From Holophagales bacterium (GTDB lineage: Bacteria > Acidobacteriota > Thermoanaerobaculia > Multivoradales > Multivoraceae), in contig VXVC01000012.1 in the NCBI GenBank assembly GCA_009836625.1, positions 482,847 to 546,846 on the forward strand: DNA of 64,000 nucleotides, read 5' to 3'. This document shows, piece after piece, positions 9,956 through 28,122 of the stretch (position 1 is the first letter of the stretch; every line of letters begins with the position of its first letter). The translations under genes and the position numbers were made by a program. Under the pieces are notes generated by a model. That model ran no database searches. It was not told the origin of the DNA and saw only the letters and a list, made by a program, of their open reading frames with translations.

Positions 9956-10303
9956 ATGCAGACTAGAGAAATGAACGCACAGCAGCCAACTCGCTTGCCG
10001 GAGTCGACGATTACTTCCCGGGGCCAGACGACCCTTCCCAAGGAGGTGCGTGAAGCGCTTGACCTGAAGGCGGGGGACAAGGTGCGCTACCTCATCTACG
10101 ATGGAGAGGTACGTGTTGCACCGGTTCTGCCGCTTAGTCGGTTGTACGGAGTACTGGAGTACGACGGACCGCCGGTGACTCTGGAGGACATCGAGCGCGG
10201 CATCATCGAGGGTGCCTGCCGCAGTGCACTGGGGGATGACTGGTCGCCGGAGACACCAGAGGAAGCGGAACGGGTCGCCGTCGGAGGCGCCGGTCGTAAG
10301 TGA
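9956..10303 (+). CDS. vapB: AbrB/MazE/SpoVT-family antitoxin (VapB-like)
   Basis: SRGQTTLPKEVREALDLKAGDKVRY is a swapped-hairpin AbrB-type DNA-binding motif. The 3' end overlaps the vapC start (GTGA). The true start may be internal (ATG 9971 or TTG 9995), giving a more typical 100-110 aa or shorter product. Confidence 0.7.
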   Translation: MQTREMNAQQPTRLPESTITSRGQTTLPKEVREALDLKAGDKVRYLIYDGEVRVAPVLPLSRLYGVLEYDGPPVTLEDIERGIIEGACRSALGDDWSPETPEEAERVAVGGAGRK

Positions 10304-10701
10304 TCGCTCTCGACACGAACGTCCTCCTTCGGTTCTTCCTCCGGGATGACGAGGAGCAGGGGGAAGCGGCGGAGAAGCTGCTGCTGCAGTTGACGCTCGA
10401 CGAGCCGGGGTTCGTCAGTCGAGAGGTTCTGGTCGAGCTGGTTTGGGCACTGGAGTACACCTTCCGTTTTGGGCGAGAGCGGATCGCAAGCTTCCTCGAT
10501 CAACTCGTCCACGTTGCGGCGGTCGAGATCGAAAGCGCGAGCGACGTAGCGGAGGCCACAGGCGGCTATCGCCGTGGCGGCGCCGATTTCGCCGACCGGA
10601 TGATCGCGGCCGCGGCGCGGCGCGCTGGCGCAGTGCCGCTCTACACCTTCGACCGGAAGGCGGCGCGGCTGCCGGGCGTCACTCTGGTGGAGCCTCGCTA
10701 G
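10300..10701 (+). CDS. vapC: PIN-domain ribonuclease toxin VapC
   Basis: IALDTNVLLRFF at the N-terminus (first PIN acidic residue), conserved downstream acidic residues, about 133 aa. Coupled to the upstream AbrB-type antitoxin. Confidence 0.85.
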   Translation: MIALDTNVLLRFFLRDDEEQGEAAEKLLLQLTLDEPGFVSREVLVELVWALEYTFRFGRERIASFLDQLVHVAAVEIESASDVAEATGGYRRGGADFADRMIAAAARRAGAVPLYTFDRKAARLPGVTLVEPR

Positions 10702-17464: not shown

Positions 17465-18934
17465 ATGAAGGGATCTGCACCGATCGGCTCGGCGGCTCGT
17501 GTACGGATGGCTCACTGCGTGACCGTTCTGGCGGTTGTCCTGGGGGCGGCGCCTGCCTGGAGCCAGGAGGAGGCCGAGCCCAGCGAACTCGACCGCGTTC
17601 TAGCCGCGCACTTCGAGGCGCGCGGCGGGCTCGAGCGCCTGCGCGCCGTCACCGGTGTACGCGGCGCGGCCACGATGTCCATGCAGGGAATGGAGGCGTT
17701 GTTCACGGTGCTCCTGCGGGCGCCGAACCAGGTGCGGATGGACGGCGATTTCGGCGGCATGGCCCTGATTCGGGCCTTCGACGGCGAGCAGGCCTGGGCT
17801 CAGCAACCGGGGGAGATGAAACCGGTTCTGCTCGAGGGAGACCTGGCGGCCGTCGCCGCCGCGGACGCCGACGTCAGCGTGCAGGGCCTGGTCGGCCTCG
17901 AGGAGCGCGGCTACGACATCGAACTCGCCGGCCGCGAGGAGATCGAGAGTGGCGAGGCCTGGAAACTCCTCGTCACGGCGCCGAGTGGTGTCGTCCAGCA
18001 GGTCTTCATCGGGGTCGAGGACGGCCTGGAGAGGAAGCGCGTGGCACAGGTGGATCTCGGCTTCGGCCTGCAGGAGACGGCCACCCTGTTCGAGGACTTC
18101 CGCGAGGTCGACGGCCTGATGATCGCCCACCGGCACATGATGATCAGTCCGATGGGGGAGATGCCGCTCCAGTTCGAGTCCTTCGAGATCAATCCGGAGA
18201 TCGACCCCGACGTCTTCTTCATGCCGGGGCAGAAGGCCGACGCTGCGCTCGGCCTGGACGAGGTACTGGCTCGCTACGGAAGCGCCCGCGGCGGTTCGGC
18301 CGCCGAAGTGGAGACACTGAGCGCGGTCGGCACGGCGGTCCTGCTCGGCTTCGAAGTGCCGATGAAGGCGGCATTCGCCCGCCCGAGTTCGTTCCGCATC
18401 GACATCGACCTGCAGGGGCTGTCGATGATCCTGGCCTACGACGGCGAGACGCCGTGGACCCTGTCGCCGATGCAGGGAGTCGTCGAGCCCGCGCCGCTGG
18501 CCGAGGAGACGGTCGGAGCGGCGGAGCTGCTAGGCGAGTTCCTTTGGGGGTTGCTTGCGAGCAGGGAGGAGCGCGGCCTGGACGTGTCGTTCGGGGGCGT
18601 CGGGAAGGTCGCTCGCGACGAGACATACCGGCTCGACATCGTCACCTCGGCAGGCGAGGAGCGCACACTCCACCTGGGCGGCGAGGACTTCCTGGAGCGT
18701 CAGGTCGCCTTCGACGGGGCGCTCTTGGGTTCCACCGGTGAGATCGAGGTGACGCTTGGCGACTACATGGACGCCGGCGGGCTGATGGTGCCGGGGACGA
18801 TCCGGATCGCGGTGGCGGGTCAGGTTGCCGCCGAGTTGAGGATCCGGGAGACCGACACCGGCGCGGACATCGACCCGGCATCGTTTACCATGCCCGCTCC
18901 CGCCGACCCGGAGACGCCGGGTCCGGCCGCCTAG
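17465..18934 (+). CDS. Secreted protein with two tandem LolA-like / outer-membrane-lipoprotein-sorting-like domains (hypothetical)
   Basis: Signal peptide (VLAVVLGAAPAWSQE). Two internally similar halves. Function not recognisable beyond the fold family. Confidence 0.5.
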   Translation: MKGSAPIGSAARVRMAHCVTVLAVVLGAAPAWSQEEAEPSELDRVLAAHFEARGGLERLRAVTGVRGAATMSMQGMEALFTVLLRAPNQVRMDGDFGGMALIRAFDGEQAWAQQPGEMKPVLLEGDLAAVAAADADVSVQGLVGLEERGYDIELAGREEIESGEAWKLLVTAPSGVVQQVFIGVEDGLERKRVAQVDLGFGLQETATLFEDFREVDGLMIAHRHMMISPMGEMPLQFESFEINPEIDPDVFFMPGQKADAALGLDEVLARYGSARGGSAAEVETLSAVGTAVLLGFEVPMKAAFARPSSFRIDIDLQGLSMILAYDGETPWTLSPMQGVVEPAPLAEETVGAAELLGEFLWGLLASREERGLDVSFGGVGKVARDETYRLDIVTSAGEERTLHLGGEDFLERQVAFDGALLGSTGEIEVTLGDYMDAGGLMVPGTIRIAVAGQVAAELRIRETDTGADIDPASFTMPAPADPETPGPAA

Positions 18935-18938
18935 GAGC

Positions 18939-21125
18939 TTGCGCATGTCGAATCTGACTTCCGCCTCGATCACGCGAACATCGGCTCGCCTCGTGAGCGG
19001 CCGCTTCCTCCCCGCCTCCGCGTTCGCTCTGGCGGTTACCGCTTCGGCGGCGTTTGCTGTCGCGTCGGTGGCCGACGACGCCGAGGGTACCGAGCCGGTC
19101 GAGGACCCCGCCCTGGCCGAGACGATCGTCGTCACCGCCTCCCGCGCCGAACAGGAACTGGGCCAGGTGACGTCCAGCGTGTCCGTGCTCTCCGGCGAGG
19201 AACTCCGGGCCAGCGCTTCCCTGGCGCTCGACGACACGATGCGCCGGGTGCCTGGCTTCAGCCTGTTCCGCCGCAACAGCTCGATGGTCGCTCATCCGAC
19301 CAGCCAGGGCGTCTCGCTTCGCGGGATCGGACCGAGCGGCGTCAGCCGCACGCTGGTACTGCTCGACGGCCTGCCGCTCAACGATCCGTTCGGAGGCTGG
19401 ATCTACTGGGGACGCGTCGGGCGCGAGAGCCTGGACCGGATCGAGGTCGTGCGCGGCGGCGGTTCGAGTCTCTGGGGCAACTCCGCCCTGGGCGGCGTGA
19501 TCCATCTGGTCACCGCGACCCCGTCGGAATCGGGACCCGGGTTGAGCCTCTCGGCGCTGGCCGGCGACCACGGCGTGCTCTCGGGCGACGCCTGGTTCGG
19601 GCAGGGATTCGAGAGCGCTTCGTTGACCCTGTCGGCGAGGAGCTTCGACATGGACGGCTACCCGGTCGTGCGGGATGACCAGCGCGGGCCGATCGACGTC
19701 GACGCGTTCTCCGAGCAGACCAGCGTCGGCGGCCGGCTGACGTTCTCTCCCGGCGAGTCGGTGCAGATTGCGATCGGCGGCGACAACCTCTCCGAGGACC
19801 GCGGCAACGGCACGCCGCTCACCGGCAACGACACGGACCTGACCTCCTTCCGTTTCAGCGCGGACGTAGTGAGCGGCCGGGGCGATACCTGGACGGTCCG
19901 CGGCTTCACCCACGAGCAGGAGTTCGCCAGCCGGTTCAGCGCCCAGCAGGTCGACCGGTCGTCCGAGCGGCCGGCCCTCGACCAGTTCCTGGTCGACTCC
20001 GAGGCCACTGGCCTCGGTGCGCAGTGGGAGGGCGAAGTCGGATCCGGCCTGTGGGTCGCCGGCGCCGAGTGGCGGAGCGTCGACGGCGCGACGAACGAGG
20101 ACTTCTTCTACACGACGCAGTTCAACCGTCGCCGCATGGCCGGCGGCGACCAGTCGATTACCGGCGCATACGTCCAGCGACGGGCCGACTTCGGCGATCG
20201 CCTGACGCTCGAAATCGGAGCTCGCATCGACCGTTGGCAGACGGGATCCGGCAGCCGGCTCGAGATCAACAAGGCCGACGGCTCGATTCGCCGCGATGAC
20301 ATGTTCGAGGACCGGGAAGAGACGGCGGCGTCGCCGCGGATCGGCTTCCTCTACGCCCTCGACCTGGGCTGGAGCCTGCGCGGTTCGGTGTACGGGTCGT
20401 TCCGGGCGCCGACCGTCAACGAGCTGTACCGGCCCTTCCGGGTTCGCAACGACATCACCGAGGCGAACGAGGCGCTCGAGCCGGAGCGGCTCTCCGGCAT
20501 CGAGTTCGGCTCCGTGCGCTACCAGGGCGGCTCGCGGCTGTCGCTGAACGCCTTTCTCAACAGGGTCGAGAACCCGATCGCCAACGTGACGCTCGCCTCG
20601 ATTCCGAGCAGCCGCTTCTTCGCGCCCTGCGGCTTCGTGCCAGGCGGCGGATCCTGCCGGCAGCGGCTCAACCTGGACCGCACCCGCATCCAGGGCCTCG
20701 AGGCGGAGCTTCGCCAGCGGCTCGGCGAGGACTGGCGGCTCGATGTCTCCTACCTCTACAGCAATGCGGAAGTCGACAGCGCCGCCGAGTTCCCGGAACT
20801 CGAGGGGAAGCGGCTGGCGCAGACGCCCGAGCAGTCGGCGAGCCTCGGCCTCGAATACTCGAACCCCGAGGTCCTCCAGGCGCGTCTCGGACTTCGGTTC
20901 GTCGGCGAGCAGTACGAGGACGATCTGAACACGAGGCCGCTGTCCAGTTTCGCCGTCGTGGACCTGAGCGCAGCCCGTGCGCTCAGTGACCGTTGGCATG
21001 TCTTCGCCGGTCTCGAGAACCTGCTCGGCGAGGAAGTGCAGGTCGGTATCTCCGGTACCGGGCTGGTCACGATCGGCGCCCCCCGCATGGTGCATGTCGG
21101 AGTGCGCCACGTTCTGAACCCCTGA
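18939..21125 (+). CDS. TonB-dependent outer-membrane receptor
   Basis: Signal peptide, a TonB-box-like ETIVVTAS, a plug domain (RVPGFSLFRRNSSM...SLRGIGPSGVSRTLVLLDGLPLND), a long beta-barrel and a C-terminal aromatic terminus. Confidence 0.9.
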   Translation: MRMSNLTSASITRTSARLVSGRFLPASAFALAVTASAAFAVASVADDAEGTEPVEDPALAETIVVTASRAEQELGQVTSSVSVLSGEELRASASLALDDTMRRVPGFSLFRRNSSMVAHPTSQGVSLRGIGPSGVSRTLVLLDGLPLNDPFGGWIYWGRVGRESLDRIEVVRGGGSSLWGNSALGGVIHLVTATPSESGPGLSLSALAGDHGVLSGDAWFGQGFESASLTLSARSFDMDGYPVVRDDQRGPIDVDAFSEQTSVGGRLTFSPGESVQIAIGGDNLSEDRGNGTPLTGNDTDLTSFRFSADVVSGRGDTWTVRGFTHEQEFASRFSAQQVDRSSERPALDQFLVDSEATGLGAQWEGEVGSGLWVAGAEWRSVDGATNEDFFYTTQFNRRRMAGGDQSITGAYVQRRADFGDRLTLEIGARIDRWQTGSGSRLEINKADGSIRRDDMFEDREETAASPRIGFLYALDLGWSLRGSVYGSFRAPTVNELYRPFRVRNDITEANEALEPERLSGIEFGSVRYQGGSRLSLNAFLNRVENPIANVTLASIPSSRFFAPCGFVPGGGSCRQRLNLDRTRIQGLEAELRQRLGEDWRLDVSYLYSNAEVDSAAEFPELEGKRLAQTPEQSASLGLEYSNPEVLQARLGLRFVGEQYEDDLNTRPLSSFAVVDLSAARALSDRWHVFAGLENLLGEEVQVGISGTGLVTIGAPRMVHVGVRHVLNP

Positions 21126-21141
21126 ACCGAAAGGGGCAGCT

Positions 21142-22887
21142 TTGGCGAAGCGAGTCACAGCCGAGACCCTCTCCCGCCGCCAGCGGGAGATCTCGGTATC
21201 GGAGTTCTTCGCCAAGAACCGGCACCTGCTCGGCTTCGATTCGCTCCGCAAGGCGCTGCTGACGACCGTCAAGGAGGCGGTCGACAACTCGCTCGACGCC
21301 TGCGAGGAGGCGGGCATCCTGCCCGAGATCTGGGTCGAGCTCGAAGCGGCCGAAGGAAACAACCGGTACGTCGTGCGTGTGACCGACAACGGCCCGGGGA
21401 TCGTCGAAACGCAAGCGCCGCGGATCTTCGGGCAACTGCTCTACGGGTCGAAGTTCCACAGCCTGAAGCAGAGCCGCGGCCAGCAGGGGATCGGCATCTC
21501 GGCGGCTGCGATGTACGGCCAGTTGACGACCGGCAAGCCGGTGTCGATCGTGTCGCGCACCGGCCCCCGTTCGCCCGCCTATGCGATGCAGGTCGTCATC
21601 GACACGAACACGAACAAGCCGAAGGCGGTCGGGAAGAAGAAGCTCGACGACTGGGATCTCGATCACGGTACCCGGGTCGAGCTGGAACTCGAGGCGCAGT
21701 ACATGAAGGGCCGCCAGTCGGTCGAGGAGTTCCTGCACCAGGTGGCCGTGGCGAACCCCCACGCAACGTTGCACTACAGGGATCCGCACGGCGAAGAAAC
21801 GGACTACGTCCGGGGCGTCCAGTCGAACCCGGCGGCGCCGAGCGAGATCAAGCCGCATCCGCACGGCGTCGAACTCGGCGTGCTGATGAAGATGCTGCAG
21901 TCGACCCAGCACGCGACGATCAGCCAGTGCCTGTCCCGGGACTTCAGCCGGGTGTCGCCGCAGATGGCGGTGGGCCTCGCCAAACGGGCCGGGATCGATC
22001 CGAAGGCGCGTCCGAACACGGTCGTGCGCAAGGCCGCCGACCAGCTCTACCAGGCGCTGAACGACTCCGCGACCCGCATCCGGCCGCCGTCGACCGACTG
22101 CCTGTCGCCGATCGGCGTGCAGGAGTTGCTGGCCGGCCTGACCCGGGGCATCCGGGCGGAGTTCTACGGGGTCGAGACGCGCCGGCCGGCGGTTTACCGC
22201 GGCAATCCGTTCCAGGTCGAGGTCGGCCTGGCCTGGGGCGGCGACTTGCCCGCGGACGACTTGGCCAAGGTGCTCCGGTTCGCGAACCGCGTTCCGCTGC
22301 AGTACCTCGCCGGCTCCTGCTGCATCACCAAGGCCGTGATGGACGTCTCCTGGCGCAACTACGGCCTGACCCAGTCGCGCGGCGCGCTGCCGTCGGGTCC
22401 GCTGATCGTGCTGGTGCATCTCGCCTCGGTGTGGGTTCCCTTCAGCTCCGAGAGCAAGGTCGCGGTCGCGGACTACGACGAGATCCGCAAGGAGATCAAG
22501 CTCGCCGTGCAGACCTGCGGGCGCCGCCTCGGCCAGTACGTCAAGCGCAAGGCGCGAGCGAAGAGCGAGGCGCGTCGCCGGGAGGTGTTCAACCTCTATA
22601 TCGAGGAGGTCGTCAACTCGGTGGAGGCGATCACCGGCAAGGACCAGAAGCTGTTCCGCGACCGGCTGCTCGCGATCAGCCGAAAGAAGACGGAGCTGGC
22701 GGGAATGCTCGAGGAGCAGGAGGCCTCCAGCGACGAGCTGGAAGCCTGCGAGAACGTCCTCGTCGTCGATCCGAACGCCGGACCGCCTGTTGCCGAAGAC
22801 GCCGAAGCGGCGGCCGCTGAGCACTTGCCGCCGCCGCTTCCCGTGGAGGCCGAGCGTGATCCCGGGTCGCAGTTGGAGCTGGTATGA
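21142..22887 (+). CDS. top6B: DNA topoisomerase VI subunit B
   Basis: TTG start 6 nt after an AAGGGG RBS. Bergerat/GHKL ATPase blocks SVSEFFAKNRHLLGFDS, TTVKEAVDNSLDA, VTDNGPGI. Also IKPHPHGV, CLSPIGVQEL, YRGNPFQVEVGLAWGG, LRFANRVPLQY...WRNYG. These are colinear with archaeal Top6B including the transducer domain. Confidence 0.9.
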   Translation: MAKRVTAETLSRRQREISVSEFFAKNRHLLGFDSLRKALLTTVKEAVDNSLDACEEAGILPEIWVELEAAEGNNRYVVRVTDNGPGIVETQAPRIFGQLLYGSKFHSLKQSRGQQGIGISAAAMYGQLTTGKPVSIVSRTGPRSPAYAMQVVIDTNTNKPKAVGKKKLDDWDLDHGTRVELELEAQYMKGRQSVEEFLHQVAVANPHATLHYRDPHGEETDYVRGVQSNPAAPSEIKPHPHGVELGVLMKMLQSTQHATISQCLSRDFSRVSPQMAVGLAKRAGIDPKARPNTVVRKAADQLYQALNDSATRIRPPSTDCLSPIGVQELLAGLTRGIRAEFYGVETRRPAVYRGNPFQVEVGLAWGGDLPADDLAKVLRFANRVPLQYLAGSCCITKAVMDVSWRNYGLTQSRGALPSGPLIVLVHLASVWVPFSSESKVAVADYDEIRKEIKLAVQTCGRRLGQYVKRKARAKSEARRREVFNLYIEEVVNSVEAITGKDQKLFRDRLLAISRKKTELAGMLEEQEASSDELEACENVLVVDPNAGPPVAEDAEAAAAEHLPPPLPVEAERDPGSQLELV

Positions 22888-23993
22888 CGGCTGACCGGCT
22901 GAAGATCCCGGCCAGCCTCGACGCGAAGGCCAAGATCGAGCACCTGGCGAAGAAGACGATCGCGATGGCGCGCCGCGAGGTCGATCCCTACGTCGACATC
23001 CCGTCGCGCACGCTCTCGAACGTCACCTTCTCGAAGCGCAAGAAGATCATCGAGATGGGCGACGCGACCCAGCGCCGGTCGCTCTTCAACCTGAACCAGG
23101 CGCGCAAGTACATGCAGACGCTACTGGTCGCCCGCGGCTGCTCCCAGCTCCTGGACGAGCAGAAGACGACGAGCATCCGCGACCTCTACTACATGAGCAA
23201 GCACACCCTGGCCGACGGCAAGGAGAACACCTTCGATGGCCAGGAGGAATCGGACCCGATCATCGAGGACCTGGAGGTCACTCTGGGCGCCCTGCGCGAG
23301 GAACTCCACCTGTTCGCGGCCAAGCGCGGCTCGGTCGTCGGCCCGTTGACGCTGGTCGACGCCGGCGACGTGATCGACCTGTCCCGTATGGGCTCAGGGG
23401 GATGGTCGGTTCCCGGGATCGTCGAGCCGGAGACGATCCGCTTCGTCGGCCACGGCGCCAGGTTCATCCTGCTGGTGGAGAAGGAAGCGGTCTGGGCGCG
23501 GCTCAACGAGGACAAGTTCTGGAAGCGGCACAACTGCATCCTCGTTACTGGCCAGGGACAGCCGCCGCGGGGCGTGCGGCGTCTCCTCTACCGGATGGTC
23601 CACGAGCTGGAGCTGCCGCTCTACGTCTTCGTCGACAACGACCCCTGGGGCTACTACATCCACTCCGTCGTCAAACAGGGCTCCATCGGCCTCGCCTTCG
23701 AATCCAGGCGGATGGCGGTGCCCAAGGCCCGCTTCATCGGTCTTTCCAGCTTCGACCCCGCCGCGTACGACCTCTCCGAAGACGTCAGCATCCGCCTGAA
23801 CGACCAGGACCGCTCCCGCGCGAAGGAGATCCTGAACTACGAGTGGTTCAAGGCCAGGGCCTGGCAGAAGGAGATCAAGAACATGCTCAGCGCCGGCGTC
23901 AAGTGGGAACTCGAAGCCCTCTCGAGCAAGGGCCTCTCCTTCGTCACCGAGGAGTTCCTGCCGAAGAAGATCGCCGACCGCGACTGGATCTAG
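22884..23993 (+). CDS. top6A: DNA topoisomerase VI subunit A (Spo11-like)
   Basis: ATG overlaps the top6B stop (ATGA). Winged-helix/CAP region with SIRDLYY (catalytic Tyr context). Toprim Glu (LVEKEAVW) and DxD (VFVDNDPWGYY). Archaeal-typical 369 aa. Confidence 0.88.
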   Translation: MTADRLKIPASLDAKAKIEHLAKKTIAMARREVDPYVDIPSRTLSNVTFSKRKKIIEMGDATQRRSLFNLNQARKYMQTLLVARGCSQLLDEQKTTSIRDLYYMSKHTLADGKENTFDGQEESDPIIEDLEVTLGALREELHLFAAKRGSVVGPLTLVDAGDVIDLSRMGSGGWSVPGIVEPETIRFVGHGARFILLVEKEAVWARLNEDKFWKRHNCILVTGQGQPPRGVRRLLYRMVHELELPLYVFVDNDPWGYYIHSVVKQGSIGLAFESRRMAVPKARFIGLSSFDPAAYDLSEDVSIRLNDQDRSRAKEILNYEWFKARAWQKEIKNMLSAGVKWELEALSSKGLSFVTEEFLPKKIADRDWI

Positions 23994-24000
23994 CGCCTCC

Positions 24001-25065
24001 TTACCACTCGCCCAACTCGACCTCCGGCGTTTTCGGCAACTCCTCCGCAAGCAGCCAGCGGGCGAAGAGAACGCCCTCGTTGTAGCCGGCGGTGCTGATC
24101 CAGTTCTTCGGCGCCTCCCGGTGGCTCAGGTAGATGACGTAGCTGCCGTCCGGCTCGGCGACGGCGGTCTGCTTGTTGACGCACACCTGGAAGTCGTTGT
24201 AGTTCGTCGACTGCATCAGGTAGTTCCACGTCTGGAGACCCCAGTAGCACGCTTCCGGTGACCGGAAACGCACCTTGAGGTACTCGTGCTCCTGCAGCCG
24301 GAAGCGGCAGAAGCAGTAGATGTTGTCGACCGTCCCCCAACCGCCCTGCTCCGGGTCGAACTCCCACGGATCGCAGAACTCGTTGAACGGGAGGTGGACC
24401 GGCAGCGGCGCGATCCACGTCGTGCACATGAAGAACATCGCCATGCTGCGGATTCGCCGTGCCAGCTCGACGTCGTCGAGCGGCAGCGCGGGTGGCTGCG
24501 GCGAGGCGTTCTCGATGCTGAGAATGCTCTCCCGCGCCGTCGCGCGGTCGAGGAAGTACTCGCGCGTGAAGAGCGACACCGAGTCGGGGTCGATCTGGAA
24601 CTCGTTCGGCCCCTTCGGATCGGGCGTCAGCTTGATCTCGAACGACCCGTCGTCGTCGAAGGCGATGTCGCGGTGGTTGACGTTCAATGTCACCCGGTCC
24701 GCCAGCTCGCCGTTCGGATCGCCGCCGTAGAGGCAGAAGCTCAGGTAGCAACTGCCGAAGTGCCGCCCCCGGATGACGTACTCCTGGTCGCCGCGGACCT
24801 GCGAGAAGTAGTAGACCGCGTCCACGTTGTCCCCGTAGAGCTTGCGGGTCCCGTCGGTGAGCCGCATGAGCCGTGGCCGCAGGGGGTCGTTGTGGAGGTA
24901 GAAGTCGATCGTTACCTGCATCAGGTGGAACAGGTGCTGGTAGCCGTCCACGTGGCCCTGGTGGTCGAGTTCTTTCTCGGGGTCGAGGAACGTCTGCTCG
25001 GCGTTGCGGATCACGTCCAGAAACTCGTGCAGCGCCTGCCGACTCTCGAAGTCGCTGTCGCTCAT
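24001..25065 (-). CDS. Conserved hypothetical cytoplasmic protein (possibly DUF1214-like), translationally coupled to the sulfotransferase
   Basis: 354-aa ORF, Cys/Trp-rich, no signal peptide. Its ATG overlaps the stop of the upstream sulfotransferase gene (ATGA). Family not confidently recognised. Confidence 0.55.
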   Translation of the reverse strand: MSDSDFESRQALHEFLDVIRNAEQTFLDPEKELDHQGHVDGYQHLFHLMQVTIDFYLHNDPLRPRLMRLTDGTRKLYGDNVDAVYYFSQVRGDQEYVIRGRHFGSCYLSFCLYGGDPNGELADRVTLNVNHRDIAFDDDGSFEIKLTPDPKGPNEFQIDPDSVSLFTREYFLDRATARESILSIENASPQPPALPLDDVELARRIRSMAMFFMCTTWIAPLPVHLPFNEFCDPWEFDPEQGGWGTVDNIYCFCRFRLQEHEYLKVRFRSPEACYWGLQTWNYLMQSTNYNDFQVCVNKQTAVAEPDGSYVIYLSHREAPKNWISTAGYNEGVLFARWLLAEELPKTPEVELGEW

Positions 25066-26303
25066 CGCTGTGTCTCCAGGAAGTTGAGATAGTGGGCGTA
25101 CTCGTTCTCGATCTCGGCCCGTGTCGTGCCCATCTGGTCCAGCGAGTACTCGTGGACGCCGTGCTTTCCCCGGCGCTCCTGCTGCAGGAATCGCTCCATG
25201 CGGAGCCGGTCCTCCGGCCGGAGGTCCCAGCCGAAGCGGGCATAGATCACGTCGACGACCGACATCTGGTCCTTGACGAAGTCGTCGAAGAACACGTCGA
25301 CCATCTGTTCCTCGCGGTCGAGCTCCCGGCGGTCTCGCAGGAACCGGGCGAAGTAGTCGGCCCAGGTCAGGAGTTGCTCACGCGCCGTTCGCGGCGTGTC
25401 CTCGTGGTCCGAGTAGAACGACCGCATCGACGAGATCAGGCTCCCGACCGAGGGCACCACGTCGGCCGGGTGGCGATGGGTCACGATGACCCGGGCATCG
25501 GGATAGACCTCGAAGAGAGCCCGCAGCCGCATCAGGTGGACGGGCGACTTCAGCAGCCAGCGACGGGCGGGAACGCCGCCCGACTGCAGGAACTGCAGGA
25601 AGCGCCGGTGCCAGCGCAGGTTCTGCGCCTGGTCGGCCTTCGCGAACCAGTCGAGGTACTCGGGCAGCCAGGCCATGGCGACGTACTGGAAGCTCGTGAA
25701 GTTGAGCGCCGTGATGCCGATGCACTCCTGCGGCGAGTCGGCCGTCATGTAGTGCTTGCGGCGGAAGTCGGGCACGAGCCGGAAGATCTGGTCGAACTCC
25801 TTGCGCACCGTCTCGATGCGCTCGTTGTCCCGGTAGTCGTCCGGATTCGGCGCCGGGTGGGGCAGGAGGCACTCCCAGGACAGCGGCGCCCGGTGGTTTC
25901 GGTCCAGGTGCAGCAGAGCGTGGAGGATCGTCGTCCCGCTCCGCGGCATGCCGACGATGAAGACCGGCGCGCGGACCTCTTCGTCGCCGATCTCGGGGTG
26001 TTCCGAGAGCGCTCGCTCGACTTGGGAGCGCGAGTCGGCCGAACGTTGCACCGTGCCGCGCGCGGCCAGCCGACCGAACGTGCTCAGCCGCGCGTGCGTC
26101 TCGAGCCCGTGCACGAGGCGCTCGACGCCGTCGCGGAATATCGGATCGCGCACCTCGAACCCGCTGGCCCGACGCGCGTTCTCCAGAATCCGCTCGGGCG
26201 TCAGCCTGAAGGGCGTCAGTCCGCAGTGGCCGGCAACCGCTCCGACACGGTTGACGGCCTTGAGCGCGACCGGCTGCCGGATCCGGATCGAAGGGTTCGC
26301 CAA
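25062..26303 (-). CDS. Sulfotransferase-family protein (PAPS-dependent)
   Basis: 5'-PSB motif FIVGMPRSGTTILHALL and a 3'-PB-like THRHPADVVPS. 413 aa. Confidence 0.8.
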   Translation of the reverse strand: MANPSIRIRQPVALKAVNRVGAVAGHCGLTPFRLTPERILENARRASGFEVRDPIFRDGVERLVHGLETHARLSTFGRLAARGTVQRSADSRSQVERALSEHPEIGDEEVRAPVFIVGMPRSGTTILHALLHLDRNHRAPLSWECLLPHPAPNPDDYRDNERIETVRKEFDQIFRLVPDFRRKHYMTADSPQECIGITALNFTSFQYVAMAWLPEYLDWFAKADQAQNLRWHRRFLQFLQSGGVPARRWLLKSPVHLMRLRALFEVYPDARVIVTHRHPADVVPSVGSLISSMRSFYSDHEDTPRTAREQLLTWADYFARFLRDRRELDREEQMVDVFFDDFVKDQMSVVDVIYARFGWDLRPEDRLRMERFLQQERRGKHGVHEYSLDQMGTTRAEIENEYAHYLNFLETQR

Positions 26304-26305
26304 GC

Positions 26306-26608
26306 TCAGGTCAGCTTCTTCAGCTTGGCGGCAATCGACATGTCGCCCTTGACCTTGATCTTCCCCGACGCGACGGCCATGAACGGCTTGATCTCCTTGC
26401 GCTGCAGCTTGCCGAAGGTGTCGAGCGACATCCGGACCGTGCAGTCCGTCTCGACCTCCTGGCCCGACACCTTCGAGACGACGTTCGCCTCACCCGTCCC
26501 GTCGATCAGCATCTGCTCCTCGTCCAGCAGGAACAGCAGCCTCTTCCCAAGGGGATCGATACCCCCCGCCTTTACGGCCATGTCGGCAACGAACTCGTCG
26601 ATCGTCAT
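26306..26608 (-). CDS. SCP2 sterol/lipid-carrier domain protein
   Basis: About 100 aa: MTIDEFVADMAVKAGGIDPLGKRLLFLLDEEQMLIDGTGEANVVSKVSG...KGDMSIAAKLKKLT, typical of standalone SCP2. It is the C-terminal end of a 601-aa track ORF whose remainder is an alternative-frame artefact. Confidence 0.75.
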   Translation of the reverse strand: MTIDEFVADMAVKAGGIDPLGKRLLFLLDEEQMLIDGTGEANVVSKVSGQEVETDCTVRMSLDTFGKLQRKEIKPFMAVASGKIKVKGDMSIAAKLKKLT

Positions 26609-26667
26609 CACAAGCTCCTGGTCGTGGAACCCGCGAACCCTAACCCACGCTGAGCCGGCGCCGCTGG

Positions 26668-28122
26668 CTAGTTCAGCGCTGCGGCCGCAGCAGGAAACGC
26701 CTTCAGCACCTCCCGTGTCATGTCCCAGCGGTCGAAGCCCTGGCGCCCCCAGTCGAGGCCGCGGCGGACGATGACGAGGTCGTGGGAGGGGACGATGACG
26801 ACGTACTGGCCGCGGTTGCCGGCGGTGGAGTAGGCGTCTTTGGGGACGTCCCTGCGTTCGTCGGGGACGAGCCAGAACTGGCCGCCGTAGAAGTTGCCGC
26901 GGTTGGCTGTCGAGGGGGCCGGGGTGCGGACGAAGTCGATCCACTCCTCGGAGATGAGGCGTTTGCCGTTCCAGACGCCGTTCTGGAGATAGAGAAGACC
27001 GAAGCGGGCAAGGTCGCGGGTGCTGGTGTAGACCTGACTGCTGAGGATGAAGTCGCCGAAGCGGTCGGTGCTGAGCAGGGTGTTCCGCATGCCGATTCGG
27101 TCGAGCAGGCGCTTGCGCGGGAACTCGTGGTACTTCTTCTCGCTGCCGAGGGCGCGCTTCATCGCGTAGACGGCGAGCAGGGTGTCGTAGTTCTCGTAGT
27201 CCCAGTTGGCGCCCGGCTCGCGGATCAGGGCGCGGCGGCGTGCGCCTTCGACGGAGCTGGCGCCGGCCCAGTAGGACAGGCCGGAGCCGACGGCGTACTC
27301 CTGCCCGCCGTTGTCCACCGTCTGCAGGCCGCTCGACATGTTCAGCGCGTGACGCAGGGTGGTCGCGGAGCGCGGGTCGGTCTCCGCCGCGGCGGCTTCC
27401 TTGGGAAGGAAGTCGAAGCCGAGCGGCTCGTCGAGAGCCAGCTTGCCGTCGTCGACCAGCATGCCGATCAGCGTCGAGGCGATGCTCTTCGCCGTCGACC
27501 AGGTGCGCGTGCGCGTCGTCATGTCGACGCCGTCGGCGTAGCGTTCGTGGACGATCCGGCCGCGATGGACGACGAGCAGGCTCAGCGTGACCTGCTGGGG
27601 TGACTCGCGGTCGAAAGCCCAGTCGGAGGCGGCCTGGAGCGCGGTCGCGTCGACATCGGACGGCGGTGAGATCGGACCGGTCTTGTCTCCGTTGGGCCAG
27701 GGGATCTTCGCCGCATCGCCGGCCGGTGGCGGCATCTCGATGGCGGGCAGGCTGTCTATGTCCTCCAGTGTCTGATCGGGCGCCAGGACGACGCAGCCGA
27801 TTCCCTCGCGGAAGGCGGCCCGCATCTTCGGCACGCCGTGGCCCGATCCGATCGTCACGGCTCTGCGTTCCCAATCGACTTCGTAGTCGCCGCCTTCCGC
27901 GGTTCCGACCGGTTCCGGCAGGTAGGCGAGTTCCTGCGCGAACACCTGCTCGAGGGTCCGGTTGGACGTGAACAGCCCGTTGCACATGAAGATCGCCTGC
28001 TGGCCCAGGCGGACCATCTGCCGCTGCGGTTGCCAGTAGTCGTAGGTTTCCTCCTGCTGGGCGGCGGCGGGGAGAGCAGTCAGCAGGATGGAGGTGGCCA
28101 GAGCGGGACACCAGGACTTCAT
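26668..28122 (-). CDS. Secreted beta-lactamase-fold serine hydrolase (class C / esterase family)
   Basis: Signal peptide, SxxK nucleophile motif (WSTAKS), 484 aa. Confidence 0.8.
   Translation of the reverse strand: MKSWCPALATSILLTALPAAAQQEETYDYWQPQRQMVRLGQQAIFMCNGLFTSNRTLEQVFAQELAYLPEPVGTAEGGDYEVDWERRAVTIGSGHGVPKMRAAFREGIGCVVLAPDQTLEDIDSLPAIEMPPPAGDAAKIPWPNGDKTGPISPPSDVDATALQAASDWAFDRESPQQVTLSLLVVHRGRIVHERYADGVDMTTRTRTWSTAKSIASTLIGMLVDDGKLALDEPLGFDFLPKEAAAAETDPRSATTLRHALNMSSGLQTVDNGGQEYAVGSGLSYWAGASSVEGARRRALIREPGANWDYENYDTLLAVYAMKRALGSEKKYHEFPRKRLLDRIGMRNTLLSTDRFGDFILSSQVYTSTRDLARFGLLYLQNGVWNGKRLISEEWIDFVRTPAPSTANRGNFYGGQFWLVPDERRDVPKDAYSTAGNRGQYVVIVPSHDLVIVRRGLDWGRQGFDRWDMTREVLKAFPAAAAALN

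What the first reader, a model, noticed from the sequence alone, without database searches (positions are those of the whole stretch)
21142..23993. Complete archaeal-type DNA topoisomerase VI (top6B-top6A, ATGA-coupled) in a bacterial chromosome context, directly downstream of a TonB-dependent receptor
Both subunits are intact and colinear with archaeal Topo VI. The B subunit has the GHKL Bergerat fold and the transducer domain. The A subunit has the winged helix with the RDLYY Tyr context and the Toprim E...DxD. The flanking genes are unmistakably bacterial (TonB-dependent receptor, aceEF-lpd, TonB). Base composition and codon style look the same as the neighbours, which suggests a long-resident gene rather than contamination. 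Topo VI is the archaeal/plant type IIB enzyme and is patchily distributed in bacteria. The gene order B then A with a 4-nt overlap indicates co-translation. It is unclear whether it replaces or supplements gyrase/Topo IV here, or serves a specialised role such as decatenation under a particular physiological state.
Basis: partly seen in the sequence, partly recalled or inferred. Interest (0 to 1): 0.65.

Follow-up and report, generated by a model that had tools for sequence, protein, structure and literature searches.

The report
Bacterial topoisomerase VI gene pair
This is an intact, long-resident copy of the "archaeal" DNA-untangling enzyme topoisomerase VI in the chromosome of an uncultured acidobacterium; such bacterial copies are already documented in other phyla, so it extends a known pattern and is not a new kind of system.

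Summary
top6B (21142-22887) and top6A (22884-23993) are intact, overlap by ATGA, and pass the curated equivalog cut-offs for Topo VI B and A. All catalytic residues are present (A: R99, Y103, E199, D251, D253; B: E45, N49, D82xGxG, G113-G118, K439). A predicted Top6B structure (pLDDT 91) matches only Topo VI-B among solved structures.

The host is an uncultured Acidobacteriota lineage (Thermoanaerobaculia, "Ca. Multivorans"). The pair is not chimeric, mobile or recent. Independent assemblies reproduce the junctions. The block hyp489-TBDR-top6B-top6A is syntenic in at least 14 related species. GC3 matches the neighbours. dN/dS is the lowest in the neighbourhood (A 0.06-0.13).

Topo VI in bacteria is already published for 17 families, though not for Acidobacteriota, and databases already annotate these proteins. 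Trees place this clade apart from the Vicinamibacteria copies, which nest inside Anaeromyxobacter.

The most likely role is a decatenase/relaxase working beside gyrase, probably in place of Topo IV. The genome's gyrase/Topo IV complement could not be checked here.

The one non-routine feature is a disordered Top6B tail ending in a conserved QLEL[V] peptide. It partly resembles a beta-clamp-binding motif and also carries top6A's ribosome-binding site. Verdict: new member of a known kind, low to moderate interest.

The parts
21142..22887 (+). top6B, DNA topoisomerase VI subunit B (581 aa, TTG start)
   Evidence: ORF. NCBIfam NF003218 670 bits and TIGR01052 515 bits, both above cut-off. PDB M. 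mazei 2q2e_B E 5.9e-147, colinear over residues 6-487. AF2 pLDDT 91.3; Foldseek top 16 hits are all Topo VI-B. The start position is conserved in relatives with TTG/GTG/ATG.
21129..21136 (+). purine-rich ribosome-binding stretch (gaaagggg), 5 nt before the top6B TTG
   Evidence: Read directly from the sequence. Similar aagggg/aggag strings occur at the same place in relatives. Inferred, not tested.
21142..21816 (+). GHKL (Bergerat-fold) ATPase domain of Top6B, with E45, N49, D82-x-G84-x-G86 and G113/G116/G118
   Evidence: Pfam HATPase_c matches aa 37-136. These columns are invariant or at least 90% conserved in a 57-sequence alignment.
21829..22086 (+). helix-two-turn-helix (H2TH) region of Top6B (aa about 230-315), the module specific to type IIB enzymes
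   Evidence: Gap-free alignment to M. mazei Top6B across this region. Helices 245-254, 260-267, 273-282 and 296-306 in the AF2 model. Boundaries are approximate.
22087..22575 (+). transducer domain of Top6B (aa 316-478), with the switch lysine K439 (codon 22456-22458)
   Evidence: Pfam Topo-VIb_trans 3.3e-56. K439 is invariant in 57 sequences and aligns with the SESK/AGK lysine of the solved structures.
22732..22884 (+). disordered acidic/Pro-rich C-terminal tail of Top6B (aa 531-581). It contains ENVLVVD (aa 537-543, nt 22750-22770) and the conserved terminal LPPPLPVEAERDPGSQLELV, of which QLELV is aa 577-581 (nt 22870-22884)
   Evidence: pLDDT 39-70 and no folded domain. Not aligned to any PDB chain. 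The conservation pattern is: helices, then ENVLVVDP, then a hypervariable linker, then a conserved end. Q, L, E and L are invariant despite synonymous codon changes.
22875..22878 (+). Shine-Dalgarno GGAG for top6A, embedded in the Leu-Glu codons of the Top6B C-terminus, 5 nt before the ATG
   Evidence: Read directly from the sequence. Equivalent SD-in-C-terminus arrangements occur in other phyla. Function is inferred.
22884..22887 (+). ATGA start/stop overlap (top6A ATG and top6B TGA), implying translational coupling
   Evidence: An overlap or a gap of 5 nt or less is common across bacterial top6 loci.
22884..23993 (+). top6A, DNA topoisomerase VI subunit A (369 aa)
   Evidence: NCBIfam NF003333 545.5 bits, above the cut-off of 465. 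PDB S. shibatae 2zbk_A E 2.5e-83. dN/dS 0.06-0.13.
23103..23312 (+). winged-helix (TP6A_N) domain, with R99 and the catalytic Y103 (codon 23190-23192)
   Evidence: Pfam TP6A_N matches aa 74-143. RDLYY aligns with IRDLYY of S. shibatae and REAYY of M. jannaschii, where the second Tyr is the catalytic residue.
23463..23972 (+). Toprim domain, with E199 (23478), D251 (23634) and D253 (23640), the metal-binding acidic residues
   Evidence: Pfam TOP6A-Spo11_Toprim 1.1e-59, aa 194-363. The residues align with the E...DxD of the solved structures.
17465..21125 (+). upstream co-directional genes: a secreted 489-aa protein of no known family (17465-18934) and a TonB-dependent receptor (18945-21125). 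They are packed against top6B and syntenic with it throughout the family. They are context only and probably not functionally part of the enzyme
   Evidence: Gaps are about 10 nt and 7-30 nt within the genus but 156 and 317 nt in L014. No suppression of synonymous change at the receptor's 3' end.

Best explanation
The two genes encode a functional type IIB DNA topoisomerase, Topo VI, an A2B2 enzyme. Its mechanism is inferred from the solved archaeal homologues. ATP binding dimerises the GHKL domains of two B subunits and captures one DNA duplex. The transducer, through the switch lysine K439, relays this to the A dimer. Y103 of each A subunit, helped by Mg2+ held by E199, D251 and D253, cuts the second duplex. 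The captured duplex passes through the break, which is then resealed. The net effect is relaxation of supercoils and, preferentially, unlinking of catenated chromosomes.

The pair was acquired long ago by the ancestor of an acidobacterial family (Thermoanaerobaculia, 'Ca. Multivoraceae'), from within a bacterial plus DPANN-type archaeal cluster of Topo VI sequences. It has since been inherited vertically as a chromosomal housekeeping operon. B is translated first, and A is translationally coupled through the ATGA overlap and a GGAG inside the last B codons.

Shown here: the identity of the genes, intact active sites, the fold of B, long residence and vertical descent, and strong purifying selection.

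Inferred: the enzymatic activity, and that it works beside gyrase as the cell's decatenase, probably in place of Topo IV. For that last step alone I give about 0.55-0.6.
For: Identity: curated equivalog cut-offs are passed for both subunits and the Pfam architecture is complete. Solved archaeal Topo VI chains match at E 2.5e-83 (A) and 5.9e-147 (B). All catalytic and nucleotide-binding residues are present. The AF2 model of B has pLDDT 91.3, and its best 16 PDB matches are all Topo VI-B.

Residence: independent assemblies give the same junctions. hyp489-TBDR-top6B-top6A synteny holds in 14 GTDB species loci of the family, 13 in the genus plus L014 at family level, down to 77% Top6A, 50% TBDR and 40% hyp489 identity. 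GC3 equals that of the neighbours. There are no integrase, transposase or tRNA genes nearby, and no bacterial plasmid or phage relatives.

Function retained: dN/dS is 0.06-0.13 for A and 0.11-0.19 for B at genus level, the lowest of 12 neighbouring genes.

Phylogeny: a 100%-supported family clade appears in both the A and B trees with concordant topology.

Role: the literature reports that all Topo VI-bearing bacteria have gyrase, that those outside Pseudomonadota and Terrabacteria lack Topo IV, and that M. mazei Topo VI is a preferential decatenase (PMC11302465; PMC8837201, abstract).
Against: No enzymatic or expression data exist for this or, as far as the searched literature shows, for any bacterial Topo VI. 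The genome's gyrA/gyrB/parC/parE complement could not be examined, so 'replaces Topo IV' rests on a published rule derived from 17 families that did not include Acidobacteriota. None of these genes lies in the 64-kb window or in the flanks of the 15 related loci. The trees are neighbour-joining on a sample biased to the best hits, and the deep nodes are unresolved (bootstrap below 50), so the donor lineage is not established. The tight packing behind a TonB-dependent receptor, with no detectable promoter of its own, is odd for a housekeeping enzyme.
Confidence: 0.85

Rival explanations
1. It is a functional Topo VI, but it is a third type II topoisomerase alongside both gyrase and Topo IV, with a specialised or conditional job. 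Examples would be decatenation in a particular growth state, or a task targeted by its C-terminal tail.
For: [quoted passage not shown] The lineage-specific conserved tail and the apparent co-transcription with a nutrient receptor could hint at specialisation or regulation.
Against: In the published survey the three-enzyme state is confined to Pseudomonadota and Terrabacteria. The very low dN/dS and universal retention in at least 15 species of the family fit an essential core function better than an accessory one.
Confidence: 0.3
2. The locus is an assembly chimera, a contaminant, or a recent or mobile acquisition such as a genomic island, plasmid or prophage cargo.
For: Bulk GC of 21-24 kb is slightly lower (0.646-0.685) than the window average of about 0.69. 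The cassette just downstream (DUF1214, sulfotransferase, SCP2, beta-lactamase; 24001-28122) is variably present among relatives.
Against: The same junctions appear in independent ENA, Logan and NCBI assemblies. Synteny holds in closed chromosomes of many species. GC3 is 0.91-0.94, like the neighbours, and the lower bulk GC comes from codon positions 1 and 2. No mobility genes or tRNAs are present. There are no bacterial plasmid or phage homologues.
Confidence: 0.02
3. The proteins belong to a different GHKL/Toprim system: a MutL or gyrase fragment, a plasmid-type Topo VIII/Mini-A, or a defence nuclease of the Wadjet JetD/MksG kind.
For: Top6A shows a marginal JetD match (15.7 bits, E 1.4e-3). 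The GHKL domain gives weak hits to MutL, histidine kinases and a phage topo II.
Against: Those scores are 30-40 times lower than the Topo VI equivalog scores and far below their own cut-offs. There are no JetABC/MksBEF neighbours. The subunits are separate genes with the full H2TH and transducer, not a fused Topo VIII. Fold matches to GyrB/ParE reach TM about 0.4 against 0.78 for Topo VI-B.
Confidence: 0.01
4. The conserved Top6B C-terminus (QLELV) is conserved only because its codons carry the ribosome-binding site and overlap needed to translate top6A. On this reading it is not a protein interaction motif.
For: GGAG (22875-22878) lies inside the Leu-Glu codons, 5 nt before the ATG. In other phyla the B C-terminus (for example ...EE-stop, GAG GAG TAG) likewise encodes the SD. 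The last residue varies (V/A/L/G), as expected if it is not under peptide-level constraint.
Against: Q, L, E and L stay invariant while their codons vary synonymously: CAA/CAG, CTG/TTG, GAA/GAG and CTC/CTG/TTG. The motif persists in L004, L005, L007, L008 and L015, where top6A starts 5-18 nt downstream. A further roughly 15 conserved residues upstream (E..PP.P.E.ER) lie outside any SD.
Confidence: 0.35

Closest known systems
Archaeal DNA topoisomerase VI (Methanosarcina mazei 2Q2E/9O0G; Saccharolobus shibatae 2ZBK)
   Same: Two-subunit A2B2 type IIB architecture. A has a winged helix with the catalytic Tyr plus a Toprim E/DxD. B has GHKL, H2TH and a transducer with the switch Lys. Alignments are colinear and full-length, and the fold of B matches at TM 0.78.
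   Different: The host is a bacterium. Top6B lacks the Ig-like C-terminal domain of M. mazei-type enzymes and instead has a roughly 50-residue disordered acidic tail with conserved short motifs. Subunit similarities are discordant: A scores best against S. shibatae (283 vs 183 bits) and B against M. mazei (494 vs 285 bits). This is probably rate heterogeneity and was not resolved.
Bacterial Topo VI as surveyed by Allen & Maxwell 2024 (PMC11302465): 17 families in Myxococcota, Planctomycetota, Pseudomonadota, Nitrospirota, Bdellovibrionota, Actinomycetota and Cyanobacteriota
   Same: Adjacent top6B-top6A genes. The sequences fall in the bacterial cluster that sits next to DPANN/Euryarchaeota-type archaeal sequences. 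There is no Ig-like CTD. The presumed role is beside gyrase.
   Different: Acidobacteriota does not appear in that survey (0 occurrences). Here the phylum shows two separate lineages of the genes. The Multivoraceae clade stands on its own deep branch, and the Vicinamibacteria genes are nested within Anaeromyxobacter.
Bacterial Topo IV (ParC/ParE), a functional analogue and not a homologue of the same subfamily
   Same: The expected cellular job is the same: ATP-dependent decatenation and relaxation of positive supercoils next to gyrase (inference from PMC11302465 and PMC8837201).
   Different: Topo IV is type IIA: three gates, a 4-nt stagger and different domain order. The ParE/GyrB ATPase folds match the model only weakly.
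Bacterial beta-sliding-clamp-binding motifs: QL[S/D]LF, and Q-phi-x-[L/M]-[F/L] (PMC9690074; bioRxiv 10.1101/2025.08.20.671105)
   Same: A short C-terminal peptide at the end of a disordered tail beginning Q-L-x-L. Related bacterial Top6B tails end in Q[NQS]DLF, QQELF or QNLNLF.
   Different: The window's last residue is V (A, L or G in relatives), not the required F/L. Only 1 of 16 family members meets the strict consensus. No binding evidence exists, and an RNA-level constraint overlaps the motif.

Membership tests
DNA topoisomerase VI (type IIB), subunit A | Curated family model passed over the full length | tested here: met
   NF003333 545.5 bits against a cut-off of 465, residues 16-369 on profile 13-366/367. 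All three Pfam domains are above gathering score.
DNA topoisomerase VI (type IIB), subunit A | Winged-helix domain carrying the catalytic tyrosine (and the preceding Arg) | tested here: met
   R99-D-L-Y102-Y103 aligns with IRDLYY (S. shibatae) and REAYY (M. jannaschii, catalytic second Tyr).
DNA topoisomerase VI (type IIB), subunit A | Toprim fold with the metal-binding Glu and DxD | tested here: met
   E199, D251 and D253 align with the corresponding residues of 2ZBK_A and 1D3Y_A. Pfam PF21180 1.1e-59.
DNA topoisomerase VI (type IIB), subunit B | Curated family model passed over the full length | tested here: met
   NF003218 670.3 bits against 274; TIGR01052 515 bits against 380.7.
DNA topoisomerase VI (type IIB), subunit B | GHKL/Bergerat ATP-binding motifs: N-box Glu/Asn, DxGxG and the Gly-rich lid | tested here: met
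   E45, N49, D82-N-G84-P-G86 and G113-Q-Q-G116-I-G118. These columns are at least 90% conserved or invariant in 57 diverse homologues.
DNA topoisomerase VI (type IIB), subunit B | H2TH module between GHKL and transducer (specific to type IIB) | tested here: met
   Continuous alignment to M. mazei Top6B through residues about 230-315. Helical bundle at 245-306 in the AF2 model, and whole-chain TM 0.78 to 9O0G_B.
DNA topoisomerase VI (type IIB), subunit B | Transducer domain with the ATP-sensing switch lysine | tested here: met
   PF09239 3.3e-56, residues 316-478. K439 is invariant.
DNA topoisomerase VI (type IIB), holoenzyme | Separate, adjacent A and B genes (unlike the fused Topo VIII) | tested here: met
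   Two ORFs with a 4-nt overlap. The same order holds in at least 60 loci from several phyla.
DNA topoisomerase VI (type IIB), holoenzyme | ATP-dependent strand passage (relaxation, decatenation) with 2-nt staggered cleavage | not testable with these tools
   Needs purified enzyme. Only sequence and fold evidence is available here.
M. mazei-type Topo VI-B (gyrase-associated subtype) | Folded immunoglobulin-like C-terminal domain after the transducer | tested here: not met
   Residues 531-581 have pLDDT 39-70 and no domain. The PDB alignment stops at residue 487. This agrees with PMC11302465, which finds that bacterial Top6B lacks the fold.
Topo VIII / Mini-A (mobile-element type IIB) | Single fused B-A polypeptide, or a lone A-like protein, carried on plasmids or integrated elements | tested here: not met
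   Two full-length subunits. No mobility genes nearby. No bacterial plasmid or phage relatives.
Wadjet/MksBEFG defence nuclease (JetD/MksG) | JetD-family model match and neighbouring JetABC/MksBEF genes | tested here: not met
   JetD scores only 15.7 bits, E 1.4e-3. The neighbours are a TonB-dependent receptor and metabolic genes.
Bacterial beta-clamp-binding proteins | Clamp-binding motif Q-phi-x-[L/M]-[F/L] or Q-phi-x-[L/M]-x-[F/L], typically C-terminal and in a disordered region | tested here: not met
   The window ends Q-L-E-L-V: positions 1-4 fit and the last does not. The strict consensus is met in 1 of 16 family members. A relaxed pattern is met in 10 of 16, against 0.15 expected from shuffled tails.
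Bacterial beta-clamp-binding proteins | Physical binding to the DnaN hydrophobic cleft | not testable with these tools
   No complex modelling or binding assay is available, and dnaN is not in the window.

The most novel reading that the evidence does not exclude
The disordered C-terminal tail that bacterial Top6B proteins carry, in place of the archaeal Ig-like domain, may be a lineage-specific targeting device that adapted an archaeal enzyme to bacterial cells. In this lineage and in Planctomycetota and Fibrobacterota, its conserved terminal peptide (QLEL[V]; Q-x-D-L-F; QNLNLF) would tether Topo VI to the beta sliding clamp, placing the decatenase directly behind the replication fork. Other lineages would use Lys-rich DNA-binding tails instead. 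No bacterial type II topoisomerase appears among the bacterial clamp partners listed in the sliding-clamp review consulted here (PMC9690074), and no paper in the searched library links Topo VI to the bacterial clamp.
Probability: 0.15. Interest if true: 0.6.

Novelty: new member of a known kind. Interest (0 to 1): 0.25.

Why it matters
It adds a whole phylum, Acidobacteriota, to the list of bacteria that stably maintain the "archaeal" type IIB topoisomerase. There are at least two separate gene lineages in the phylum: Multivoraceae on its own deep branch, and Vicinamibacteria nested within Anaeromyxobacter.

The genome scan found at least 577 bacterial and archaeal loci. This shows the enzyme is far more widespread in uncultured bacteria than the 17 families so far published.

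That matters for three questions. How do bacteria without Topo IV segregate chromosomes? How transferable are core DNA-topology enzymes between domains? Could Topo VI inhibitors have unexpected bacterial targets?

For this particular window, however, the finding is a clean, already-annotated example of a documented phenomenon. Only the conserved tail motif offers a new testable idea.

Tried and rejected
1. Gyrase/Topo IV complement. I scanned the window and all 86 fetched loci (1.46 Mb) by motif regex and by tblastn with a verified GyrB and an E. coli GyrA probe. Only one gyrB turned up, in a Phycisphaerae locus (L032), and none in the window or in any Multivoraceae locus. I judged that walking the 347-kb contig with the look-up of encoding contigs would yield too little.

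2. Promoter/terminator consensus scan of 16.8-24.6 kb. It found no promoter-like sites, and terminator-like sites at chance level, so it was uninformative.

3. Embedded promoter in the receptor's 3' end. Synonymous variation there is not suppressed, so there is no support.

4. tRNA and Rfam scans of the whole window found nothing.

5. Mobile-element origin. There are no phage matches, and the only plasmid matches are three haloarchaeal megaplasmids at about 35% identity. Rejected.

6. Defence-system reading. PADLOC gives only a marginal JetD hit. Rejected.

7. hyp489, the conserved upstream neighbour, has no Pfam, NCBIfam or PDB match, so it was left uncharacterised.

8. Clamp-binding reading of the tail. 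It failed the strict published consensus, and a broader 50%-identity sample shows such endings are uncommon. I kept it only as a low-probability hypothesis.

9. Literature on Topo VI or Topo IV in Acidobacteria gave only incidental co-mentions. A name search for 'Multivorans azotirespirans' found nothing, and a topic search for a sponge-microbiome MAG study did not confirm the suspected sponge source. The habitat therefore rests only on my memory of the MAG naming.

Full report
OBSERVATION. top6B runs 21142..22887 (+ strand, TTG start, 581 aa) and top6A runs 22884..23993 (+ strand, ATG start, 369 aa). They share the four bases ATGA at 22884-22887. A TonB-dependent receptor (Plug plus beta-barrel) ends at 21125, 16 nt before top6B. 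The wider window is ordinary bacterial chromosome. It holds aceE-aceF-lpd, ThiC, ABC-transporter parts, peptidases, NAD biosynthesis genes, a TonB_C protein, a DEAD helicase and polyphosphate kinase. It has no tRNA, no Rfam hit and no mobility genes.

IDENTITY. Pfam gives HATPase_c plus Topo-VIb_trans (3.3e-56) for B. For A it gives TP6A_N, Topo_VI_alpha and TOP6A-Spo11_Toprim (1.1e-59). NCBIfam equivalog models are passed with wide margins. For B, NF003218 scores 670 bits against a cut-off of 274, and TIGR01052 scores 515 against 380.7. For A, NF003333 scores 545.5 against 465. MutL and the histidine kinases score about 16 bits.

Against solved structures, A matches S. shibatae 2ZBK_A at E 2.5e-83. 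B matches M. mazei 2Q2E_B at E 5.9e-147, colinear over residues 6-487.

The functional residues are all present. In A these are R99, the catalytic Y103 (second Tyr of RDLYY), E199 and D251-N-D253. In B they are E45, N49, D82-N-G-P-G86, G113-Q-Q-G-I-G118 and the switch lysine K439. In a 57-sequence alignment of diverse homologues these B positions are invariant or at least 90% conserved.

An AlphaFold2 model of B (pLDDT 91.3, pTM 0.87) is well folded to about residue 530. Its 16 best PDB matches are all Topo VI-B chains (E 1.8e-67 to 1.8e-44, TM 0.72-0.78). GyrB and ParE ATPase fragments trail at E about 1e-15 and TM about 0.4. The defence and phage libraries give only a marginal JetD hit (15.7 bits) and weak GHKL hits.

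HOST AND RESIDENCE. The nearest relatives are MAGs labelled Thermoanaerobaculia, 'Candidatus Multivorans', Holophagales or Acidobacteriota, at 90-98% Top6A identity. Several are closed 3.7-5.4 Mb chromosomes. The window's exact proteins lie on a 347-kb metagenome scaffold (SAMN12347672), on an NCBI MAG contig (GCA_009844385.1), and on independently assembled Logan contigs that reproduce the junctions TBDR/top6B and top6A/DUF1214. The contig is therefore not an archaeal-bacterial chimera.

The block hyp489-TBDR-top6B-top6A is syntenic in 14 species-level loci of the family: 13 genus-level loci plus L014. L013 is cut off upstream of top6B and cannot be judged. In L014, Top6A is 77%, the receptor 50% and hyp489 40% identical to the window. 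Outside the family only the B-to-A pair is shared.

GC3 is 0.91 for top6B and 0.94 for top6A, against 0.81-0.93 for the neighbours. The slightly lower bulk GC of the region comes from codon positions 1 and 2, which reflects amino-acid composition.

At genus level, dN/dS against family orthologues is 0.06-0.13 for top6A and 0.11-0.19 for top6B, the lowest among 12 neighbouring genes. No bacterial plasmid or phage carries a relative. Together these results show an old, vertically inherited gene pair under strong selection.

PHYLOGENETIC PLACEMENT. I built neighbour-joining trees (Kimura distances, 50 bootstraps) of A (72 sequences) and B (64 sequences), taken from the fetched loci plus solved archaeal references. 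In both trees the Multivoraceae form a 100%-supported clade. The other Acidobacteriota sampled (Vicinamibacteria) form a separate 100% clade nested within an Anaeromyxobacter/Myxococcota clade that is itself 100% supported. The whole bacterial set sits beside DPANN-type archaeal sequences, as published for one of the two bacterial clusters (PMC11302465).

Deep nodes are unresolved, and the sample is biased towards the best hits. I therefore claim only that the family's genes are not sister to the Vicinamibacteria genes, and that A and B share the same history within the family.

WHAT IS KNOWN. Forterre & Gadelle (2009) knew of three bacterial cases. Allen & Maxwell (2024) list 17 bacterial families. 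They report that all have gyrase, that only those in Pseudomonadota and Terrabacteria also have Topo IV, that bacterial Top6B lacks the Ig-like C-terminal domain, and that the role in bacteria is unresolved. Acidobacteriota is not mentioned there, and the searched literature does not link the phylum with Topo VI except incidentally.

Public annotation, however, already names these proteins. It often does so under the misleading NCBIfam label 'DNA topoisomerase IV subunit A'. The representative library holds 714 clusters at E of 1e-30 or better. The enzyme is therefore much more common in uncultured bacteria than the literature suggests.

MECHANISM AND ROLE. By homology the enzyme should act as an A2B2 two-gate type IIB topoisomerase. 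ATP-driven dimerisation of the B GHKL domains captures one duplex. Cleavage of the second duplex by Y103 with Toprim-bound Mg2+ opens a gate. The captured duplex passes through and the break is resealed.

Expression appears to be coupled. A purine-rich stretch precedes the TTG start of B. A GGAG at 22875-22878, inside the last B codons, sits 5 nt before the A start. Tight B-to-A coupling is the rule across phyla.

Within the genus, the gaps hyp489-TBDR (about 10 nt) and TBDR-top6B (7-30 nt) leave no room for a promoter. Synonymous variation in the receptor's 3' end is not suppressed. No consensus promoter or terminator stands out. Read-through co-transcription with the receptor genes is therefore plausible. 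In L014, though, the corresponding gaps are 156 and 317 nt, so I regard the association as inherited gene order and not a functional link.

The cellular role is inferred: decatenation and relaxation beside gyrase, probably in place of Topo IV. I put that last step at about 0.55-0.6. I could not interrogate the genome for gyrA/gyrB/parC/parE. None lies in the window or in the flanks of the 15 related loci.

THE C-TERMINAL TAIL. The only part of the pair without an archaeal structural counterpart is Top6B residues about 531-581. It is predicted disordered. Across the family the layout is as follows: conserved helices come first, then the motif ENVLVVDP, then a hypervariable indel-rich acidic/Pro/Ala linker (total tail length 92-194 aa), and finally a conserved end, LPPPIPxEAERxxxSQLEL[V].

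The ending resembles the bacterial beta-clamp-binding motif. The published forms are QL[S/D]LF, and Q-phi-x-[L/M]-[F/L] with a critical terminal F/L. Related tails in Phycisphaerae and Planctomycetaceae end in Q[NQS]DLF or QQELF, and one in Fibrobacteria ends in QNLNLF. The three DPANN-type archaea and the Anaeromyxobacter/Vicinamibacteria clade have nothing similar.

A relaxed pattern occurs in 10 of 16 and 8 of 17 members of the two groups, against 0.15 and 0.14 expected from shuffled tails, and in none of the Top6A C-termini.

Several points weigh against the clamp reading. Only 1 of 16 family members meets the strict consensus. The terminal residue varies (V/A/L/G). Such endings are uncommon in a more diverse sample, where many bacterial tails are Lys-rich instead. 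The Leu-Glu codons also carry top6A's GGAG.

The RNA-only explanation is not sufficient either. Q, L, E and L are invariant despite synonymous codon changes. They persist where top6A does not overlap. About 15 further conserved residues lie upstream of any ribosome-binding site.

I conclude that the tail carries a real, protein-level conserved short motif of unknown partner. Clamp binding is a hypothesis with roughly 0.15 probability. It parallels the published idea that gyrase-bearing archaea evolved Top6B C-terminal extensions to specialise or sequester the enzyme (PMC9348778).

VERDICT. The finding is a new member, and a new phylum-level record in the literature, of a known and already-annotated kind of system. 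It is not surprising to a specialist. Interest is 0.25. The open points are the type II topoisomerase complement of the genome, the donor lineage, and the function of the tail motif.

Noticed in passing
window 22732-22884 (Top6B aa 531-581); also L029, L035, L040, L048, L049, L055, L057 and P0131, P0134, P0211: Bacterial Top6B tails are disordered and differ by lineage. Multivorans tails end LPPPIPxEAERxxxSQLEL[V]. Phycisphaerae and Planctomycetaceae tails end Q[NQS]DLF or QQELF. A Fibrobacteria tail ends QNLNLF, and a Myxococcota-like representative ends GQLDLVK. All resemble a beta-clamp-binding motif. A second motif, [DE]N[VT][LVI][VI][VI][DE] (ENVLVVD here), recurs in Planctomycetota and in a Nanoarchaeia Top6B.
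   Followed up: partly
window 22870-22887: The last Top6B codons (cag ttg gag ctg gta tga) contain top6A's Shine-Dalgarno GGAG and the ATGA overlap, so one stretch is under both protein-level and RNA-level constraint. In Anaeromyxobacter-type loci the acidic B C-terminus (GAG GAG TAG) likewise encodes the SD.
   Followed up: yes
window 17465-18934: A 489-aa secreted protein with a signal-peptide-like N-terminus has no Pfam, NCBIfam or PDB match. It sits immediately upstream of the TonB-dependent receptor and is syntenic with it and with top6BA across the whole family (40-96% identity). It may be a receptor-associated surface or periplasmic partner.
   Followed up: partly
window 24001-28122 (compare L007-L011): The cassette just downstream of top6A (DUF1214 protein, sulfotransferase, SCP2, beta-lactamase-family protein) is present in only some relatives. 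L001, L002 and L012 have an extra insertion of about 2.2 kb between top6A and DUF1214. This is a variable accessory spot next to a conserved core.
   Followed up: no
L032 15816-18368: In a Phycisphaerae MAG a bona fide gyrB (NF011501, 986 bits) lies about 5 kb downstream of top6A. This echoes the gyrase/Topo VI gene adjacency described for haloarchaea and Methanosarcina.
   Followed up: partly
L019-L023, L037, L039, L041, L043 versus L025-L062: Vicinamibacteria (Acidobacteriota) Top6A and Top6B nest with 100% bootstrap inside the Anaeromyxobacter/Myxococcota clade. This suggests bacterium-to-bacterium inter-phylum transfer, separate from the Multivoraceae lineage.
   Followed up: partly
NCBIfam models NF003332-NF003337 except NF003335; protein names: Five of the six NCBIfam models that hit Top6A (NF003335 is the exception) are titled 'DNA topoisomerase IV subunit A'. 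This misnomer for Topo VI subunit A propagates into GenBank and RefSeq product names for bacterial and archaeal proteins, and it could hide bacterial Topo VI from keyword searches or inflate Topo IV counts.
   Followed up: no
L016, L018; P0121, P0122, P0132, P0172, P0200, P0222, P0260: Many Myxococcota-like and Planctomycetota-like Top6B proteins end in long Lys/Ala/Pro-rich (AKKK-repeat, histone-H1-like) tails. This looks like an alternative, probably DNA-binding, appendage.
   Followed up: no
P0123, P0127, P0128, P0147, P0153, P0162, P0169, P0184, P0201 and others: Numerous Top6B representatives are 1000-1570 aa long and match the query in 2-3 separated stretches, as expected for intein insertions. 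The window's Top6B has none.
   Followed up: no
window 22884-23993 versus 21142-22887: Similarities to the solved archaeal enzymes are discordant. Subunit A scores 283 bits against S. shibatae and 183 against M. mazei. Subunit B scores 494 bits against M. mazei and 285 against S. shibatae. This is probably unequal evolutionary rates, but a mixed origin of the pair was not excluded.
   Followed up: no
window about 9956-10701: A MazE/PrlF-type antitoxin gene and a PIN-domain toxin gene form an overlapping toxin-antitoxin pair between the SBP_bac_5 gene and an uncharacterised 316-aa ORF.
   Followed up: no
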